Virus record (IMG/VR): IMGVR_UViG_2526164633_000052
Strand: one strand, 5' to 3'
Source of the DNA: a virus
Taxonomy: Duplodnaviria; Heunggongvirae; Uroviricota; Caudoviricetes
Length of the DNA: 15,394 nt
Under the pieces are notes generated by a model. That model was not told the origin of the DNA. It worked only from the letters and a program-made list of their open reading frames with translations, and searched no databases. The position numbers and the translations under genes are program-made. This document shows, one piece after another, positions 1 through 15,089 of this stretch. Position 1 is the first letter of the stretch. Every line of letters begins with the position of its first letter.

Positions 1-504
1 TTATTGATAGTGTTTTATGTTCAGATAATGCCCGATGACTTTGTCATGCAGCTCCACCGATTTTGAGAACGACAGCGACTTCCGTCCCAGCCGTGCCAGG
101 TGCTGCCTCAGATTCAGGTTATGCCGCTCAATTCGCTGCGTATATCGCTTGCTGATTACGTGCAGCTTTCCCTTCAGGCGGGATTCATACAGCGGCCAGC
201 CATCCGTCATCCATATCACCACGTCAAAGGGTGACAGCAGGCTCATAAGACGCCCCAGCGTCGCCATAGTGCGTTCACCGAATACGTGCGCAACAACCGT
301 CTTCCGGAGCCTGTCATACGCGTAAAACAGCCAGCGCTGGCGCGATTTAGCCCCGACATAGCCCCACTGTTCGTCCATTTCCGCGCAGACGATGACGTCA
401 CTGCCCGGCTGTATGCGCGAGGTTACCGACTGCGGCCTGAGTTTTTTAAGTGACGTAAAATCGTGTTGAGGCCAACGCCCATAATGCGGGCAGTTGCCCG
501 GCAT
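1..504 (-). CDS. insB: IS1 transposase InsB (B frame of the InsAB' frameshift transposase)
   Basis: 167-aa translation [16 protein letters not shown]...HYLNIKHYQ matches IS1 InsB as I remember it; overlaps insA in a different frame as in IS1. Confidence 0.85.
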
Positions 505-5261: not shown

Positions 5262-5434
5262 CTTACTGCGTACCCTTTCTTTCGCCTGTTCTGTGACGCT
5301 GTAGGCTTACGCTTTGCGGCAAAAGCCACCTGACCAAATGGATGGAGTACTGCTATCTTATGGTTGCTGATAACCAGCTCCACCACACGCACAGGTCGCT
5401 GTAAAAAAAGTCGTTTTGCTTTACGGTTTTTCAT
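5258..5434 (-). CDS. Small basic protein (58 aa, below the ORF-track cutoff), paralog of 5070-5261
   Basis: Hand translation MKNRKAKRLFLQRPVRVVELVISNHKIAVLHPFGQVAFAAKRKPTASQNRRKKGYAVR; AGGAG RBS 9 nt upstream; the first 20 nt are identical to the start of the downstream paralog. Confidence 0.35.
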   Translation of the reverse strand: MKNRKAKRLFLQRPVRVVELVISNHKIAVLHPFGQVAFAAKRKPTASQNRRKKGYAVR

Positions 5435-5606
5435 CGTTTTGCTCTCCTGCGTTTCTTTGCTGCACGTCGTGCAGCTGCAATACCGGTATGGCGGTGCTTT
5501 GGTGCCGGGATGATGTTGTCAGCCATCAGGACATGTGGCTTTGCAATTAGCGCAGAAGCCCAAAAACGAGTCGGGTACGGTAACAAGTCGATACATGCCA
5601 CACGCA

Positions 5607-11504: not shown

Positions 11505-12068
11505 ATGAGGCTAACCGTGGGTAAGCATCACTGGAAAGTAGAAAAACAGCCTGAGTGGTACGTGAAAGCTGTCAGAAAAACTATCGCGGCGTTGCCGGGG
11601 GGTTACGCTGAAGCTGCTGAGTGGCTGGATGTAACAGAGAACGCTTTATTCAACCGCCTTCGTGCAGATGGCGATCAGATTTTCCCGCTGGGATGGGCAA
11701 TGATTTTACAGCGCGCGGCTGGCACTCACTACATTGCGGATGCTGTCGCACAGTCTGCTGGTGGGGTGTTTGTATCGCTTCCTGAAATTGAGGAAGTAGA
11801 GAACGCCGATATAAACCAGCGCCTGCTGGAAGTCATCGAACAGATCGGGAGTTACTCAAAGCAGATTCGTTCGGCAATCGAAGATGGGGTAGTGGAGCCA
11901 CACGAGCAGACAGCAATTAATGATGAGTTGTATCTGTCAATTTCGAAGCTCCAGGAGCATGCAGCACTGGTCTACAAAATCTTTTGCGCTCCAGAAAAGA
12001 GTGACGCCCGCGAGTGTGCAGCTCCGGGCGTCGTGGCGTTTTGTGTCTGTGGAGAAACTAACGCATGA
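11505..12068 (+). CDS. CII-like / YdaT-like regulatory protein (assignment tentative)
   Basis: Second gene of the rightward operon, where CII or YdaT sits in lambdoid phages; HTH-like segment GYAEAAEWLDVTENALFNRLR; alternative GTG start at 11517 has a better RBS. Confidence 0.5.
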   Translation: MRLTVGKHHWKVEKQPEWYVKAVRKTIAALPGGYAEAAEWLDVTENALFNRLRADGDQIFPLGWAMILQRAAGTHYIADAVAQSAGGVFVSLPEIEEVENADINQRLLEVIEQIGSYSKQIRSAIEDGVVEPHEQTAINDELYLSISKLQEHAALVYKIFCAPEKSDARECAAPGVVAFCVCGETNA

Positions 12069-12901
12069 ACAGTTTAACGGCAAATAACCGTTTGTCGCAA
12101 CAGCTGGTGGTCAGCGTCGCTGAACACCTGTTGTTACGGCATGAATGCAGATTACCAAATCACCTGGCTGTAAGTAACCACAGAGAACTTTACCTGACTG
12201 TGGGGGGCGAGTTGTGCAGGAACTTAACCGCTGGTTTCGTGACGGAAGAGGACTTTATGTTCATGTTATTCGTTGGGAGCCAGAAACACAGCGCGTTATC
12301 TATCTTCGCAAAGACTACCCGCATGAGTGCTTTAGTCCTTTGTGGAAATTCAGGCGTGATTTTGTTGAGTGTGAAGGACCACCAGCACATTGATTCTGCC
12401 ATTCCGGGACGTTACACTGTTCAGGCACCTTATAAAGCGGGTGCCGGGATTGGCGTCCTGGAATTGATCAAGGCGATATATGACGCGCCAGCGTCTTTTT
12501 TATCGTCCGCATTTGCTCACATCAAAGTTATGGTGGGCTGGGCGGGGGCATCGAAAGATGCGCCGGTTTCCTTGATCACCGGTTACGCCAACCCCGTTCA
12601 GTTCACCACCAGCGAAATTGGCGTTTCCGGTGGTGGAAGTATTTCACCGATCAAGGAGGCTGCCATCATGGCTACTGTCCCAGCCCTCACTCGTCTGAAT
12701 GATGAAGACTTACATAAACTCAGTTATGTAACAACTGCACTACGTGCTCTGCGCAAGGTAACTCTTTCGGATCCCCAGGCGCATCAGGTTTTGGTAGAAA
12801 CCCTTCTTAACTTGCAGGCTGAACGTATTCGTCTGGCGGATAAGGCTAATTTTCATATTCACCGTCTCCTGAATATCAGCGGAGGGCATCGTCATGCTTA
12901 A
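12065..12901 (+). CDS. Hypothetical protein (278-aa ORF); gene structure uncertain
   Basis: Long open frame translationally coupled to both neighbours (ATGA at 12065; downstream ATG 12894 overlaps its end); no family recognised; 12178-12402 is open in three frames. Confidence 0.4.
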   Translation: MNSLTANNRLSQQLVVSVAEHLLLRHECRLPNHLAVSNHRELYLTVGGELCRNLTAGFVTEEDFMFMLFVGSQKHSALSIFAKTTRMSALVLCGNSGVILLSVKDHQHIDSAIPGRYTVQAPYKAGAGIGVLELIKAIYDAPASFLSSAFAHIKVMVGWAGASKDAPVSLITGYANPVQFTTSEIGVSGGGSISPIKEAAIMATVPALTRLNDEDLHKLSYVTTALRALRKVTLSDPQAHQVLVETLLNLQAERIRLADKANFHIHRLLNISGGHRHA

Positions 12902-13130
12902 TCCGTTGAGCCTCAATATTCGCCGTTTACTTCAGCGTAAAAAAACATCAATTCCTACAGTTGGGCAGTGGTACACCACGCCTGCAGGGCATGTTCTACG
13001 TGTTAGCCTGGTTGACCGTGAATGCCAGAAGGTGATTTGTGAACCGCTGGGCCGTAATTACCGCGTCAGTATGCCGCTTATAGCCTTTCGCTCCGGAAAA
13101 AACATGAAGCATCTCGGAGGTGCAGCATGA
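12894..13130 (+). CDS. Hypothetical small protein (78 aa)
   Basis: Strong GGAGG RBS 8 nt before ATG 12894; stop overlaps the start of the O-like gene (ATGA). Confidence 0.45.
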   Translation: MLNPLSLNIRRLLQRKKTSIPTVGQWYTTPAGHVLRVSLVDRECQKVICEPLGRNYRVSMPLIAFRSGKNMKHLGGAA

Positions 13131-13945
13131 GTATGGAGCTGATGGTTAAAGCGATGAAAATTCGAGTGGGTAATCCATTGCGAAAACTGGTTCTGATCAA
13201 GCTGGCTGATAATGCCAGCGATCAGGGTGAGTGCTGGCCCAGCTATCAGCATATCGCTGATCAGTGCGAGATTAGCAAACGTTCTGTGATGAATCATATT
13301 GCGGCCCTCTGTGAGTCCGGGCTGGTAAAAAAAGTCACCCGGAAAGGTGAAAAAGGTAACTCAAGTAATATCTATCTCCTTCATCTGGATGGTGCAGGAG
13401 ATTCACTAGGGGGTAGTGCAAATAATTCACTATCTGGTGCAGCAAATTCACCAGGTAGTGCAGGAGTTGCACCAGGGGGTAGTGCAGGAGATTCACCCAG
13501 AACCAGTCACTCTTTTGAACCAGTCAAAGAACCAGTCAATGAACCAATAGCTGTTGGTGCATCAGTTGATGAGTCCGTGCGAGTTCGTTCAAACCGACCG
13601 GAATACTCTCCGGAGTTTGAGCAGGCATGGCTGGCATATCCCAAACGTGCTGGTGGCAATTCAAAATCTGCAGCCTTCAAAGCCTGGAAAGCCCGTTTGA
13701 ACGAGGGGGTAAACCCCGAAACCATGCTGGAAGGTGTGAAACGCTACGCGGGCTGGGTATCTGCGATGGGTAACAGCGGCACACAATTTGTGAAACAGGC
13801 TGTCACGTTCTTTGGTCCGGATCGTCATTTCGAAGAATCCTGGGAAGTTCCTGCGATATCTGCAGCCAGACGCGAGGACCCGTACTTCAAAGCCAGTTAC
13901 GACAACGTGGACTACAGCCAGATCCCGGCAGGATTCAGGGGGTGA
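13127..13945 (+). CDS. Phage replication initiator (lambda O-like architecture): N-terminal winged-HTH domain, low-complexity linker, C-terminal domain
   Basis: N-terminus LRKLVLIKLADNASDQGECWPSYQHIADQCEISKRSVMNHIAAL resembles HTH-type phage replication proteins; iteron-like DNA repeats lie within the Gly/Ser/Ala-rich linker. Confidence 0.7.
   Translation: MSMELMVKAMKIRVGNPLRKLVLIKLADNASDQGECWPSYQHIADQCEISKRSVMNHIAALCESGLVKKVTRKGEKGNSSNIYLLHLDGAGDSLGGSANNSLSGAANSPGSAGVAPGGSAGDSPRTSHSFEPVKEPVNEPIAVGASVDESVRVRSNRPEYSPEFEQAWLAYPKRAGGNSKSAAFKAWKARLNEGVNPETMLEGVKRYAGWVSAMGNSGTQFVKQAVTFFGPDRHFEESWEVPAISAARREDPYFKASYDNVDYSQIPAGFRG
13391..13550. repeat. Iteron-like tandem repeats (candidate replication origin) inside the O-like gene
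   Basis: About five tandem 21-24-bp units sharing attcac...ggtagtgcagga (13391-13500), then three or four copies of gaaccagtca at 11-16-bp spacing (13501-13550). Confidence 0.55.
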
Positions 13946-14436
13946 TCATGAGTCTTTTGAATGAAGTTCAGAAATTCATTGAAGCCCATCCGGGGTGTAC
14001 TTCCGGAGACATTGCGGATGCTTTTGCAGGTTACTCACGGCAGCGCGTTCTGCAGTCAGCAAGCAAGTTACGTCAGAGTGGGCGTGTGGCTCACCGTTGT
14101 GAAGGAGATACACGCAGACATTTCCCACGCCTGACTGAGAGAGCGCAGGAGCCGGAACTACAACCAGTTCGTGAAACCAGACCTGTGCGCAATTTCTATG
14201 TCGGCACTAACGATCCCCGGGTGATTTTGTGCCTGACCCGCCAGGCGGAAGAACTGGAGTCCAGGGGCCTATACCGTCGTGCTGCAACGGTGTGGATGGC
14301 GGCATTCCGTGAAAGCCACTCCCAGCCAGAACGAAACAATTTTCTGGCGCGTCGTGAGCAGTGTTTACGGAAAAGCAGCAAGCGCGCTGTATCGGGTGAT
14401 GAGTGGTATCTGTCAGGGAATTACGTGGGGGCTTAA
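13942..14436 (+). CDS. PerC/ANR-like transcriptional regulator with N-terminal winged-helix-like region
   Basis: C-terminal LESRGLYRRAATVWMAAF...FLARREQCLRK resembles the PerC-family signature as I recall it. Confidence 0.5.
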   Translation: MIMSLLNEVQKFIEAHPGCTSGDIADAFAGYSRQRVLQSASKLRQSGRVAHRCEGDTRRHFPRLTERAQEPELQPVRETRPVRNFYVGTNDPRVILCLTRQAEELESRGLYRRAATVWMAAFRESHSQPERNNFLARREQCLRKSSKRAVSGDEWYLSGNYVGA

Positions 14437-15089
14437 TGAGTAATAAATATTGCCAGGAGCTGGTGGAACTGCGGAACAAACCAGCCCATGAACTGAAGGA
14501 AGTGGGTGATCAGTGGCGCACGCCGGACAACATTTTCTGGGGAATTAACACCCTGTTTGGCCCGTTTGTTCTGGATCTGTTCACTGACGGTGATAACGCC
14601 AAATGTGCCGCGTATTACACGGCGGAAGACAACGCGCTGGCGCATGACTGGTCAGAACGCCTTGTGGAGCTTAAAGGTGCTGCCTTTGGTAATCCTCCAT
14701 ACAGCCGCGCCAGTCAGCATGAGGGGCAATACATCACCGGCATGCGTTACATCATGAAACATGCCAGTGCCATGCGTGATAAGGGCGGGCGCTATGTTTT
14801 CCTGATCAAAGCTGCCACCAGCGAAGTGTGGTGGCCGGAAGATGCGGACCATATTGCTTTTATTCGCGGGCGTATTGGTTTTGAACTGCCTGCCTGGTTT
14901 ATCCCGAAGGATGAGAAGCAGGTGCCGACAGGCGCTTTCTTCGCTGGTGCTATTGCTGTTTTTGACAAGACCTGGAAGGGACCGGCAATCAGCTACATCG
15001 GGCGCGATGAACTTGAGGCATGTGGTGAGGCCTTTCTGGCGCAGGTTCGCCAGCAGGCAGAAAAACTGGTCAGGGAGATGGTGGCATGA
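14436..15089 (+). CDS. Phage-type DNA N6-adenine methyltransferase (Dam-like, orphan)
   Basis: Catalytic NPPY motif (AFGNPPYS) and overall size; start set at ATG 14436 overlapping the upstream stop rather than the ORF-track Met at 14403. Confidence 0.7.
   Translation: MSNKYCQELVELRNKPAHELKEVGDQWRTPDNIFWGINTLFGPFVLDLFTDGDNAKCAAYYTAEDNALAHDWSERLVELKGAAFGNPPYSRASQHEGQYITGMRYIMKHASAMRDKGGRYVFLIKAATSEVWWPEDADHIAFIRGRIGFELPAWFIPKDEKQVPTGAFFAGAIAVFDKTWKGPAISYIGRDELEACGEAFLAQVRQQAEKLVREMVA

What the first reader, a model, noticed from the sequence alone, without database searches (positions are those of the whole stretch)
13391..13550. Iteron array and short repeat block inside the O-like gene: candidate phage origin
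About five tandem 21-24-bp units (core ggtagtgcagga / attcac) are followed by three or four copies of gaaccagtca, all inside the low-complexity Gly/Ser/Ala/Pro linker of the replication-initiator gene. This mirrors lambda, where ori-lambda iterons lie within O between its two domains. The coding repeat also produces the repetitive peptide GGSANNSLSGAANSPGSAGVAPGGSAGDSP. No helicase-loader gene (lambda P or DnaC-like) follows; a PerC-like regulator and a methyltransferase follow instead, so replication here may depend on host loaders or on the unknown upstream ORFs.
Basis: partly seen in the sequence, partly recalled or inferred. Interest (0 to 1): 0.45.

Follow-up and report, generated by a model that had tools for sequence, protein, structure and literature searches.

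The report
Phage replication origin inside initiator gene
The repeats are real and are very probably the replication origin of an SfV-type temperate phage, lying inside the gene of the protein that binds them. The design is known from phage lambda, but here it sits in a large, unstudied initiator family that encodes no helicase loader and ends in a tail copying the host protein DnaT.

Summary
Confirmed. Window 13390-13498 holds five 19-bp dyad-symmetric repeats (TRGTGMA-N5-TKCACYA; spacing 24/21/21/24). Window 13499-13550 holds three exact and one degenerate GAACCAGTCA units. Both lie in the disordered interdomain linker of a 272-aa initiator (13127-13945), 99.6% identical to phage SfV orf39.

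Comparison with about 200 related phage and prophage genes shows these are DNA elements, not peptide repeats:
- Each lineage has its own palindromic repeat, at fixed offsets from the block, and it co-varies with the recognition helix of the N-terminal winged helix.
- Repeats and block are read in different codon phases in different genes.
- Nine consecutive block codons show almost no synonymous variation. Elsewhere in the same genes, conserved residues use their commonest codon only 52% of the time.

Best reading: a lambda-like intragenic iteron origin with a conserved, easily melted entry block, in an HTH_36 initiator family rather than the lambda O family. SfV encodes no helicase, loader or primase.

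Unexpected lead: the initiator ends in DYSQIPAGFRG, matching the near-invariant C-terminal motif of host DnaT. That tail occurs only where no phage DnaC/DnaB genes follow.

Replication function is inferred, not shown.

The parts
13127..13945 (+). Replication initiator gene (272 aa), SfV orf39 type
   Evidence: 99.6% aa identity to SfV orf39 'replication protein'. phrog_270 'replication initiation protein', E 1e-87.
13127..13393 (+). [quoted passage not shown] The presumed recognition helix is aa 49-60 (EISKRSVMNHIA).
   Evidence: Pfam HTH_36, 44.1 bits against a cut-off of 25. AlphaFold2 pLDDT 80-94 with H-H-H-H-beta-beta topology. Foldseek matches winged-helix proteins, including DnaD-N 2v79 and plasmid RepA_N 4pql/5kbj, at E about 0.03. 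Helix residues co-vary with the repeat half-site.
13350..13380 (.). Left low-stability segment (71% A+T) just upstream of the repeat array
   Evidence: Nearest-neighbour stability profile. A family-averaged secondary peak lies at -150 to -120 from the block.
13390..13408 (.). Iteron 1, TGGTGCAGGAGATTCACTA
13414..13432 (.). Iteron 2, TAGTGCAAATAATTCACTA
13435..13453 (.). Iteron 3, TGGTGCAGCAAATTCACCA
13456..13474 (.). Iteron 4, TAGTGCAGGAGTTGCACCA (core is a perfect 5-N5-5 palindrome)
   Evidence: (matches on both strands).
13480..13498 (.). Iteron 5, TAGTGCAGGAGATTCACCC; abuts the conserved block
   Evidence: The last repeat starts at -17 from the block in nearly all family members.
13499..13550 (.). 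Conserved origin block: AGAACCAGTCA-CTCTTTT-GAACCAGTCA-AA-GAACCAGTCA-AT-GAACCAATAG. Candidate DNA-unwinding or helicase-entry element.
   Evidence: DNA-level conservation across Gammaproteobacteria: 9 codons with 0.91-1.0 modal-codon use against 0.52 in the N-domain. Read in another frame in 6 of 78 genes. It is the least stable 30-nt zone of the gene on family average, z about +1.6. Unit number varies from 2 to 4 in isolated phages.
13397..13597 (+). Linker-coding stretch (aa 91-157), predicted disordered; holds the iterons and the block
   Evidence: AlphaFold2 pLDDT below 50 for aa 91-157.
13598..13771 (+). C-terminal helical core (aa 158-215). In relatives it is paired with phage DnaC-like plus DnaB-like genes.
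   Evidence: Helices 162-170, 180-193 and 197-214, pLDDT about 70-77. Same core in AsXd-1 and Stx2_14040, followed there by IstB/DnaC-like and DnaB-like genes. No Pfam, NCBIfam or PDB match.
13871..13942 (+). Portable 24-aa C-terminal tail REDPYFKASYDNVDYSQIPAGFRG. The last 11 residues match the DnaT C-terminal motif D-x-x-x-IP-x-GFRG.
   Evidence: BLASTP 8/9 identity to the DnaT C-terminus. The motif is near-invariant in 120 DnaT clusters. The same tail sits on the unrelated YfdO-type initiator core. The tail correlates with absence of phage DnaC/DnaB. Predicted disordered.
13942..14436 (+). PerC/YfdN-family gene that follows where a loader would be
   Evidence: Pfam PerC, 1e-9.
14403..15089 (+). 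Dam-type N6-adenine methyltransferase gene
   Evidence: Pfam Dam, 1.2e-45. By my reading there is no GATC inside 13390-13550.

Best explanation
Window 13390-13550 is the vegetative replication origin of an SfV-type temperate phage. It is embedded in the disordered-linker coding part of its own initiator gene.

Inferred mechanism:
1. Dimers of the initiator's N-terminal winged-helix domain bind the five 19-bp dyad-symmetric iterons. These are phased at about two helical turns (21/24 bp).
2. This forms a nucleoprotein complex like the lambda O-some.
3. The complex destabilises the adjoining block of 2-4 direct GAAYCAGTCA units, which is the least stable DNA in the gene.
4. The C-terminal part of the initiator brings in a replicative helicase.

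Relatives with the same C-terminal core use a phage-encoded DnaC-like/DnaB-like pair. This phage encodes none and must use host DnaB-DnaC. It possibly does so through a C-terminal tail that copies the conserved C-terminal motif of the host primosome adaptor DnaT.

The origin lies in the rightward early operon (cro, cII, Ash-family gene, orf38, initiator), so early transcription passes through it, as at ori-lambda.

Shown here: the repeats, their DNA-level conservation, their co-variation with the recognition helix, the domain mosaic, and the lack of loader genes.

Inferred: binding, unwinding at the block, and helicase recruitment.
For: (1) The repeats are far beyond chance and unique in the window and in the SfV genome.

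(2) Every N-domain homologue examined has its own palindromic repeats at the same place, for example GGGCAGGAGCTGCCC, TGCCATCTGATGGCA, CTGTGCCACCAAAAAGCACAG, GTAGGC..GCCTAC and GTGACACAGAGTCAC.

(3) In a sample chosen only by N-domain protein similarity (80 prophages of Enterobacterales, Pseudomonas, Aeromonas, Shewanella, Vibrionaceae, Marinomonas and Pasteurellaceae), repeat starts fall at -17, -41, -62, -83/86 and -104/107 from the block whatever their sequence.

(4) The repeat half-site co-varies with residues 49-58 of the predicted recognition helix. GTG-type sites go with S-[KR]-R-S-V-[MI]. TGCC, TAGGC and GGGCAG types go with S/D-[KR]-S-[AT]-V-[RK].

(5) About half of the genes read at least one repeat in a different codon phase (23+22 spacing instead of 24+21). 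Six of 78 read the block in another frame, and mEp013 also does so. The conserved object is therefore DNA, not peptide.

(6) Synonymous sites: in 53 dereplicated genes, conserved residues of the N-domain use their modal codon 52% of the time. In the block, Arg is AGA in 51/51, Ser AGT in 52/52, His CAC in 46/46, Ser TCT in 52/52, Glu GAA in 51/51, Pro CCA in 39/43 and Val GTC in 48/49. Non-synonymous C/T changes (Thr/Ile, Pro/Ser) are tolerated.

(7) The linker is predicted disordered, so nothing in the fold explains the conservation.

(8) The block is the least stable DNA in the gene on family average.

(9) N- and C-domains recombine at this point, and the C-domain co-varies with the downstream partner: lambda P, a DnaB-like helicase, DnaC-like plus DnaB-like, or a Toprim primase. 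This is the classical lambdoid O design.

(10) Plaque-forming or induced phages (SfV, mEp460, PhiR63_1, a Stx2c phage) keep an identical five-repeat array.

(11) SfV has no other replication gene.
Against: - No experiment: neither binding nor origin activity is shown, and the SfV and ST64B genome papers and the Weigel & Seitz review could not be read.
- The block is only 58-61% A+T in this window. That is much less extreme than what I recall for classical unwinding elements.
- Natural alleles with 1, 2, 7, 8 or 9 repeats, and one lacking the last repeat and the block, exist in prophages. Copy number is therefore not strictly constrained, and some alleles may be dead.
- The block-codon statistics condition on finding the block with at most 7 mismatches in frame (67 of 80 loci). 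The other loci have the units at other spacings.
- The repeat logo was built from copies collected by similarity to the last repeat.
- What binds the block is unknown.
Confidence: 0.8

Rival explanations
1. The repeats are initiator binding sites used for autoregulation or copy control (a transcriptional roadblock inside its own gene, or handcuffing), not the site where replication starts. The origin lies elsewhere.
For: Binding-site properties (dyad symmetry, co-variation with the recognition helix) do not by themselves say what binding achieves. From general knowledge, iteron-plasmid initiators also use their repeats for control. Copy number varies from 1 to 9 among prophage alleles.
Against: No other repeat cluster of this motif exists in the 37-kb SfV genome. 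The array is always coupled, at a fixed distance, to a DNA-conserved, low-stability block, which regulation does not explain. The position between the two domains of the initiator, with the module exchange point there, mirrors proven lambdoid origins.
Confidence: 0.1
2. The conserved GAAYCAGTCA block is not an unwinding or entry element. It is either a binding site for a host factor common to Gammaproteobacteria, or a conserved 'linker' that serves homologous recombination between initiator modules.
For: The block sits exactly at the junction where N- and C-domains are shuffled. It is the same in hosts ranging from Pseudomonas to Xenorhabdus. Its A+T content is modest.
Against: Selection for evolvability would hardly hold nine codons free of synonymous change across orders. 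In Shewanella profunda (L193) both units changed together (GAATCTATCA twice), which suggests a co-evolving phage-encoded reader rather than a fixed host factor. By my own inspection, the units do not resemble the DnaA-box or IHF consensus as I recall them. These readings are not exclusive with an origin function.
Confidence: 0.15
3. The repeats are only a slippage-prone, low-complexity coding linker (Gly/Ser/Ala/Pro) with no function as DNA.
For: The region encodes a disordered linker. Unit copy number changes by whole repeats, as slippage or unequal recombination would give.
Against: DNA palindromes are not expected from peptide repeats. The same DNA repeat is translated in two phases within single genes, and the block in two frames between genes. 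Synonymous sites are frozen while some amino acids vary. The geometry is fixed across lineages with unrelated repeat sequences.
Confidence: 0.03
4. The conservation reflects an RNA element in the early transcript (a structure, sRNA or recoding signal).
For: Conservation at synonymous sites is also what an RNA element would give.
Against: No Rfam family matches here. The predicted RNA fold of 13385-13555 is no better than shuffles, z = -0.61. No promoter-like site was found. Frame differs between genes, so it is not a recoding signal. Per-repeat dyad symmetry with a variable centre is typical of dimer-binding DNA sites.
Confidence: 0.02

Closest known systems
ori-lambda within gene O of phage lambda and lambdoid relatives (P22 gene 18, phage L gene 18)
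   Same: An array of roughly 19-20-bp repeats with internal dyad symmetry lies in the middle of the initiator gene, between an N-terminal origin-binding domain and a C-terminal partner-binding domain. Repeat sequence is specific to the initiator type. A more A+T-rich segment lies to the right. The origin sits in the rightward early operon. Modules are exchanged at the interdomain point. (General knowledge; repeats within O, P22 18 and L 18 are summarised in PMC8022706.)
   Different: The initiator N-domain is Pfam HTH_36, not Phage_rep_O. There are five repeats rather than four. The flanking element is a set of direct GAAYCAGTCA repeats conserved at the DNA level across Gammaproteobacteria, only about 60% A+T, rather than an A+T-rich tract. 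No P or helicase gene follows.
Iteron-plasmid origins (for example RK2 oriV/TrfA, pPS10/RepA, staphylococcal RepA_N plasmids)
   Same: Winged-helix initiators bind directly repeated iterons next to an unwinding element that itself contains short direct repeats (the 13-mers of RK2, which TrfA reads as single strands; general knowledge). The fold of the N-domain resembles RepA_N and DnaD-N weakly.
   Different: In plasmids the iterons are normally outside the rep gene. Here they are translated. No sequence-family membership was detected.
Non-lambdoid 'Eru' replication regions of Stx phages (Eru5 = Stx2a_F403; Eru6)
   Same: F403 carries a homologous N-domain with its own repeats (GGGCAGGAGCTGCCC three times) and the block. 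The papers note HTH_36 proteins in Eru5, 6, 8, 11 and 13, and Rha/Ash proteins in Eru6 (PMC8951638). That fits this window (Ash-family gene at 12065-12901).
   Different: Those papers classify gene content only. They state that nothing is known about the replication proteins of Eru phages, and they do not mention iterons or origins.
E. coli DnaT (primosomal protein I)
   Same: The extreme C-terminus DYSQIPAGFRG matches the DnaT motif D-x-x-x-IP-x-GFRG. The motif is terminal in both proteins and is near-invariant in the enterobacterial DnaT clusters listed. Some pipelines name homologues 'primosomal protein I'.
   Different: There is no homology beyond the tail: hhalign probability 0.2%, no Pfam DnaT domain, and no fold match. 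DnaT acts at abandoned forks with PriA and PriB, not at an origin.

Membership tests
Lambda-type intragenic iteron origin (ori-lambda kind) | At least three direct repeats of about 18-20 bp, each with internal dyad symmetry | tested here: met
   Five 19-bp copies of TRGTGMA-N5-TKCACYA.
Lambda-type intragenic iteron origin (ori-lambda kind) | The repeats lie inside the initiator gene, between its two domains | tested here: met
   They code for aa 89-124 of a linker predicted disordered (aa 91-157), between a wHTH domain and a helical C-domain.
Lambda-type intragenic iteron origin (ori-lambda kind) | Repeat sequence is specific to, and co-varies with, the initiator's N-terminal domain | tested here: met
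   At least eight repeat types track the recognition-helix sequence.
Lambda-type intragenic iteron origin (ori-lambda kind) | An adjacent A+T-rich DNA-unwinding region | tested here: inconclusive
   The block is the least stable zone of the gene on family average (z about +1.6), but only 58-61% A+T in the window.
Lambda-type intragenic iteron origin (ori-lambda kind) | A helicase-delivery partner gene (P, DnaC-like or DnaB-like) directly downstream | tested here: not met
   PerC and Dam genes follow. No such gene exists in the whole SfV genome. Relatives do have partners.
Lambda-type intragenic iteron origin (ori-lambda kind) | Initiator-dependent initiation of replication at the repeats | not testable with these tools
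   Needs replicon assays, footprinting or origin mapping.
Pfam Phage_rep_O (PF04492), the lambda O N-terminal domain family | Match to the family model above its threshold | tested here: not met
   No hit at E <= 0.01. The best hits are HTH_36 and, below threshold, DnaD_N.
Pfam HTH_36 (PF13730) | Match above the gathering score | tested here: met
   44.1 bits against a cut-off of 25, aa 17-67.
DnaD-like proteins (Pfam DnaD_N PF21984) | Match above the gathering score | tested here: not met
   24.3 bits against a cut-off of 27. There is only a generic winged-helix fold resemblance to 2v79.
PHROG 270, phage replication initiation protein | Full-length profile match | tested here: met
   E 1e-87 over aa 3-271.
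DnaT family (Pfam DnaT PF17948) | The DnaT three-helix ssDNA-binding domain | tested here: not met
   No Pfam match even at E = 5. hhalign probability 0.2%. No Foldseek match.
DnaT family (Pfam DnaT PF17948) | The conserved C-terminal motif D-x-x-x-IP-x-GFRG at the protein end | tested here: met
   DYSQIPAGFRG against SQIPPGFRG. Motif conservation in DnaT orthologues is shown.

The most novel reading that the evidence does not exclude
The initiator has no loader of its own because its disordered C-terminal tail (…DYSQIPAGFRG) mimics the near-invariant C-terminal motif of host DnaT. It thereby captures whatever DnaT's tail binds: the DnaB-DnaC complex, or PriA/PriB.

[quoted passage not shown] The 2026 preprimosome structure paper says that mechanism 'remains unknown' (PMC13377028).

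Together with this, the GAAYCAGTCA block would be a universal, sequence-specific helicase-entry element shared by thousands of gammaproteobacterial prophages.
Probability: 0.3. Interest if true: 0.75.

Novelty: new variant of a known kind. Interest (0 to 1): 0.5.

Why it matters
It gives a concrete, testable origin for a very common but unstudied replication module. The initiator has 5,428 protein clusters in public data. Relatives occur in 386 of the species-level genomes scanned, and about half of complete E. coli genomes match at least part of the gene. The module includes Stx2c-converting and other Stx phages, for which published work says nothing is known about replication.

The family is also a natural experiment in protein-DNA recognition. 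One fold and one fixed geometry carry at least eight repeat specificities, each with a matching recognition helix.

The DnaT-like tail offers a handle on an open question in bacterial replication restart.

Tried and rejected
- **Sequence search of the PDB** with the initiator: only chance matches to the low-complexity linker.
- **NCBIfam**: no meaningful hit for the initiator, its C-domain, or SfV orf44/orf45.
- **Pfam on the C-domain alone**, even at E = 5: nothing relevant.
- **Foldseek of the C-domain model against the PDB**: nothing below E = 5. The model is of modest confidence (mean pLDDT 56.5).
- **Homology of the C-domain to DnaT**: rejected by hhalign.
- **RNA element**: rejected.
- **Internal promoter**: none found.
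- **Literature**: the SfV and ST64B genome papers are not held. Text searches for the repeat, block and tail sequences found only unrelated primers or nothing. I therefore cannot exclude that Weigel & Seitz (2006) or the SfV paper already noted the repeats.
- **Eru2 identity**: rejected. Eru2A has a Phage_rep_O motif and is followed by a DnaB-like gene.
- **Plasmid collection**: circular records of 38-45 kb carry the module. They look like excised phage genomes, so they are not evidence of an autonomous minimal replicon.
- **DnaA-box, IHF or GATC sites in 13390-13550**: none seen on inspection. This was my own reading, not a tool result.
Full report
**1. Observation**

The segment is as described. 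Window 13127-13945 (+) encodes a 272-aa protein.

Inside it, the 15-mer GTGCA-N5-TKCAC occurs at 13392, 13416, 13437, 13458 and 13482, with spacing 24, 21, 21 and 24. It occurs nowhere else in the window. Chance expectation is 0.17, and none of 200 shuffles reach the observed count. With two flanking bases on each side, each copy is a 19-bp imperfect palindrome.

Directly after the fifth copy comes AGAACCAGTCA-CTCTTTT-GAACCAGTCA-AA-GAACCAGTCA-AT-GAACCAATAG (13499-13550). Tandem Repeats Finder reports periods of 21, 24 and 12.

In the complete 37-kb SfV genome both motifs occur only in this cluster.

**2. What the gene is**

The window is 98.5% identical in DNA to phage SfV across orf38-orf39-orf40. 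The protein is 99.6% identical to SfV orf39, annotated 'replication protein'.

The gene order is: cI, cro, a CP76-type cII, an Ash-family gene, orf38, the initiator, a PerC/YfdN-family gene, then Dam.

Domain evidence:
- The N-terminal part matches Pfam HTH_36 (44.1 bits, cut-off 25). It does not match Phage_rep_O.
- The whole protein matches PHROG 270, 'replication initiation protein'.
- AlphaFold2 gives a confident winged helix for aa 1-89, a disordered stretch for aa 91-157, a three-helix core for aa 162-214 (pLDDT about 70-77), and a disordered tail.
- Foldseek matches the N-domain only to generic winged-helix proteins, including DnaD-N and plasmid RepA_N.
- The C-domain has no match in Pfam, NCBIfam or the PDB.

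The repeats and the block therefore encode a linker without predicted structure.

**3. The repeats are DNA elements that go with the N-domain**

A tblastn search of phage genomes shows that the N-terminal and C-terminal halves match independently in different phages. The junction is at the linker.

In every N-domain homologue read, the linker holds a different palindromic repeat:

| Source | Repeat |
|---|---|
| SfV, ST64B, Aeromonas phage AsXd-1 | GTGCAGGAGATTCAC |
| Stx2a_F403 | GGGCAGGAGCTGCCC, three copies |
| A Klebsiella phage | TGCCATCTGATGGCA |
| Pectobacterium phage ZF40 | CTGTGCCACCAAAAAGCACAG |
| Vibrio phage phiV039C | TATGCCAAATACTGGCATA |
| mEp013 | GTGTCACTGTGACAC |

A pattern scan of IMG/VR for the block returned at least 120 contigs. 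That gave 98 distinct regions, and all of them have such repeats immediately upstream.

That sample is biased towards the block, so I drew a second one by N-domain protein similarity only. In it, 386 species-level genomes have a relative, and 80 loci from many gammaproteobacterial orders were kept. In this second sample:
- Repeat starts sit at -17, -41, -62, -83/86 and -104/107 from the block, whatever the repeat sequence.
- The half-site co-varies with residues 49-58 of the predicted recognition helix.
- The pooled logo of the GTG-type repeats is TRGTGMA-N5-TKCACYA, with invariant arms and a variable centre. This logo has a caveat: the copies were collected by similarity to the last repeat.

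**4. Independence from the reading frame**

About half of the genes have a 23+22 spacing where others have 24+21. One repeat is then translated in a different codon phase from its neighbours within the same gene.

In six Shewanella and Parashewanella genes, the last repeat and the block are read in another frame, giving the peptide LVNLLHPEPVTLEPV instead of SAGDSPRTSHSFEPV. mEp013 also carries AACCAGTCA units out of frame.

A peptide-level repeat cannot explain this.

**5. The block is under selection as DNA**

In the protein-selected sample, 67 of 80 loci carry AGAACCAGTCACTCTTTTGAACCAGTCA with at most 5 mismatches. Most of the others carry the units at other spacings.

In 53 dereplicated genes, conserved residues of the N-domain use their commonest codon 52% of the time. 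Arg, Ser and Leu use all six of their codons there. In the block, the same genes show:

| Residue | Codon | Count |
|---|---|---|
| Arg | AGA | 51/51 |
| Ser | AGT | 52/52 |
| His | CAC | 46/46 |
| Ser | TCT | 52/52 |
| Glu | GAA | 51/51 |
| Pro | CCA | 39/43 |
| Val | GTC | 48/49 |

Meanwhile the amino-acid changes Thr/Ile, Pro/Ser and Phe to Leu/Ser/Pro are common. This analysis conditions on having found the block in frame with at most 7 mismatches.

On family average, the block is the least stable 30-nt zone of the gene (z about +1.6). A second soft zone lies just left of the repeats. In the window itself the block is only 58-61% A+T.

In one Shewanella prophage both units changed together, to GAATCTATCA. 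This hints at a co-evolving reader.

**6. Partners and the missing loader**

The C-terminal domain co-varies with the gene that follows:

| Source | Downstream partner |
|---|---|
| Klebsiella phage | lambda P |
| ZF40, phiV039C | DnaB-like helicase |
| F403 | Toprim primase |
| AsXd-1 (same C-core as this window) | DnaC-like plus DnaB-like pair |
| Stx2_14040 (same C-core, different N-domain) | DnaC-like plus DnaB-like pair |

SfV, a complete inducible phage, has no helicase, loader, primase or polymerase gene. It must therefore use host proteins.

**7. The tail**

BLASTP against E. coli DnaT found one thing only. The last nine residues, SQIPAGFRG, match the last nine of DnaT, SQIPPGFRG. Both end the protein.

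In 120 DnaT clusters the motif D-x-x-x-IP-x-GFRG is near-invariant.

Among initiators with this C-core, the tail type tracks what lies downstream:

| Tail | Downstream | Count |
|---|---|---|
| DnaT-like tail | PerC and/or Dam, no DnaC/DnaB | 32 of 32 |
| SEQDYG..NW | DnaC-like plus DnaB-like | 8 of 8 |
| DxFGxS..LxF | DnaC-like plus DnaB-like | 7 of 7 |

The same 24-aa tail ends the otherwise unrelated C-terminal domain of a YfdO-type initiator, which has its own HTH_36 N-domain. This is seen in phage vB_EcoS-569R4 and in the K-12 prophage CPS-53. There too it is followed by YfdN and Dam, with no loader.

Cautions:
- The 32 cases are close relatives, so they represent few independent events.
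- The tail, PerC and Dam travel together as DNA.
- The rest of the C-domain is not homologous to DnaT.
- The DNA of the two tails differs at four synonymous sites in nine codons, so this is not a recent transfer.
- The function of DnaT residues 154-179 is not established in the papers I could read. Truncation to residue 153 roughly doubles the apparent Kd for ssDNA and lowers cooperativity. [quoted passage not shown]

**8. Variation**

Isolated phages keep five repeats with identical spacing. The block has two units in Stx2c_EH0430, three in SfV, mEp460 and this window, and four in PhiR63_1.

Prophage alleles in E. coli, otherwise at least 87% identical, carry 1, 2, 5, 7, 8 or 9 repeats. One allele lacks the last repeat and the block. 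Their functional state is unknown.

**9. Literature**

The Stx-phage 'Eru' papers list HTH_36 proteins in several replication-region types. F403 is the Eru5 reference. They say nothing is known about their replication and do not mention repeats or origins.

The SfV and ST64B genome papers and the Weigel & Seitz review are not held. Prior mention of these repeats therefore cannot be excluded.

**10. Verdict**

The segment is best read as a lambda-like intragenic iteron origin, in a different and very widespread initiator family, with a family-wide DNA block of unknown reader. A specialist would expect the origin itself.

The less expected results are the frozen block and the DnaT-like tail tied to the absence of a loader.

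Origin function, binding, unwinding and helicase recruitment are all inferences.

Noticed in passing
window 13871-13942 (aa 249-272); compare L212:3979-4518 (-): The initiator ends in …DYSQIPAGFRG, which matches the near-invariant C-terminal motif of E. coli DnaT (…DSQIPPGFRG). The tail is found only on initiators that have no phage DnaC/DnaB genes downstream.
   Followed up: partly
window 12425-12501 and 12526-12613 (+): Rfam matches above the gathering score to isrK (64.2 bits) and to C4 antisense RNA (82.3 bits). Both lie inside the Ash-family ORF 12065-12901, which SfV annotates as 'immunity region' (orf37). This suggests a P1/P7-like c4 antisense immunity system next to the replication gene.
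   Followed up: no
L213:2161-3102 (phage vB_EcoS-569R4); L214:2369-3076 (E. coli K-12 CPS-53): A second initiator type (YfdO-like) has its own HTH_36 N-domain and its own repetitive linker (SDSDPSKSDASKSDPSKFDASKS…), but the same 24-aa tail. It is also followed by YfdN/PerC and Dam. The K-12 copy is an N-terminally truncated pseudogene.
   Followed up: partly
P0001-P0042 (E. coli and Shigella alleles of the window protein): Alleles of 242-302 aa differ by whole repeat units: 1, 2, 5, 7, 8 or 9 iterons. P0040 lacks the last iteron and the whole block. This is a natural deletion and expansion series for testing origin function.
   Followed up: partly
L003 (AsXd-1), L009 (Stx2_14040) and prophage loci: Initiators with the same C-terminal core but tails ending SEQDYG..NW or DxFGxS..LxF are always followed by DnaC-like plus DnaB-like genes. 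These tails may be docking motifs for the phage-encoded loader.
   Followed up: partly
L005:3388-5538 (Stx2a_F403): The Toprim-type primase gene downstream of the F403 initiator also matches Hint and LAGLIDADG domains. This suggests an intein inside the replication protein.
   Followed up: no
window 1-504 (-): This ORF matches phage transposase family phrog_720, so the left end of the window may hold an insertion sequence.
   Followed up: no
window 5411-5455: A two-copy 23-nt tandem repeat (TCGTTTTGCTCTACGGCGTTTCA, 77% match) lies at the junction of small leftward ORFs.
   Followed up: no
L193 (Shewanella profunda prophage), about 389 nt into the initiator gene: Both block units carry the same change (GAATCTATCA instead of GAACCAGTCA). 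This looks like concerted change of the two copies.
   Followed up: no
plasmid records NZ_CP148393.1, CP077666.1, NZ_CP118695.1 and several Arsenophonus nasoniae records of 28-48 kb: Circular 'plasmid' records of phage size carry this initiator family. They may be phage-plasmids or excised prophages.
   Followed up: no
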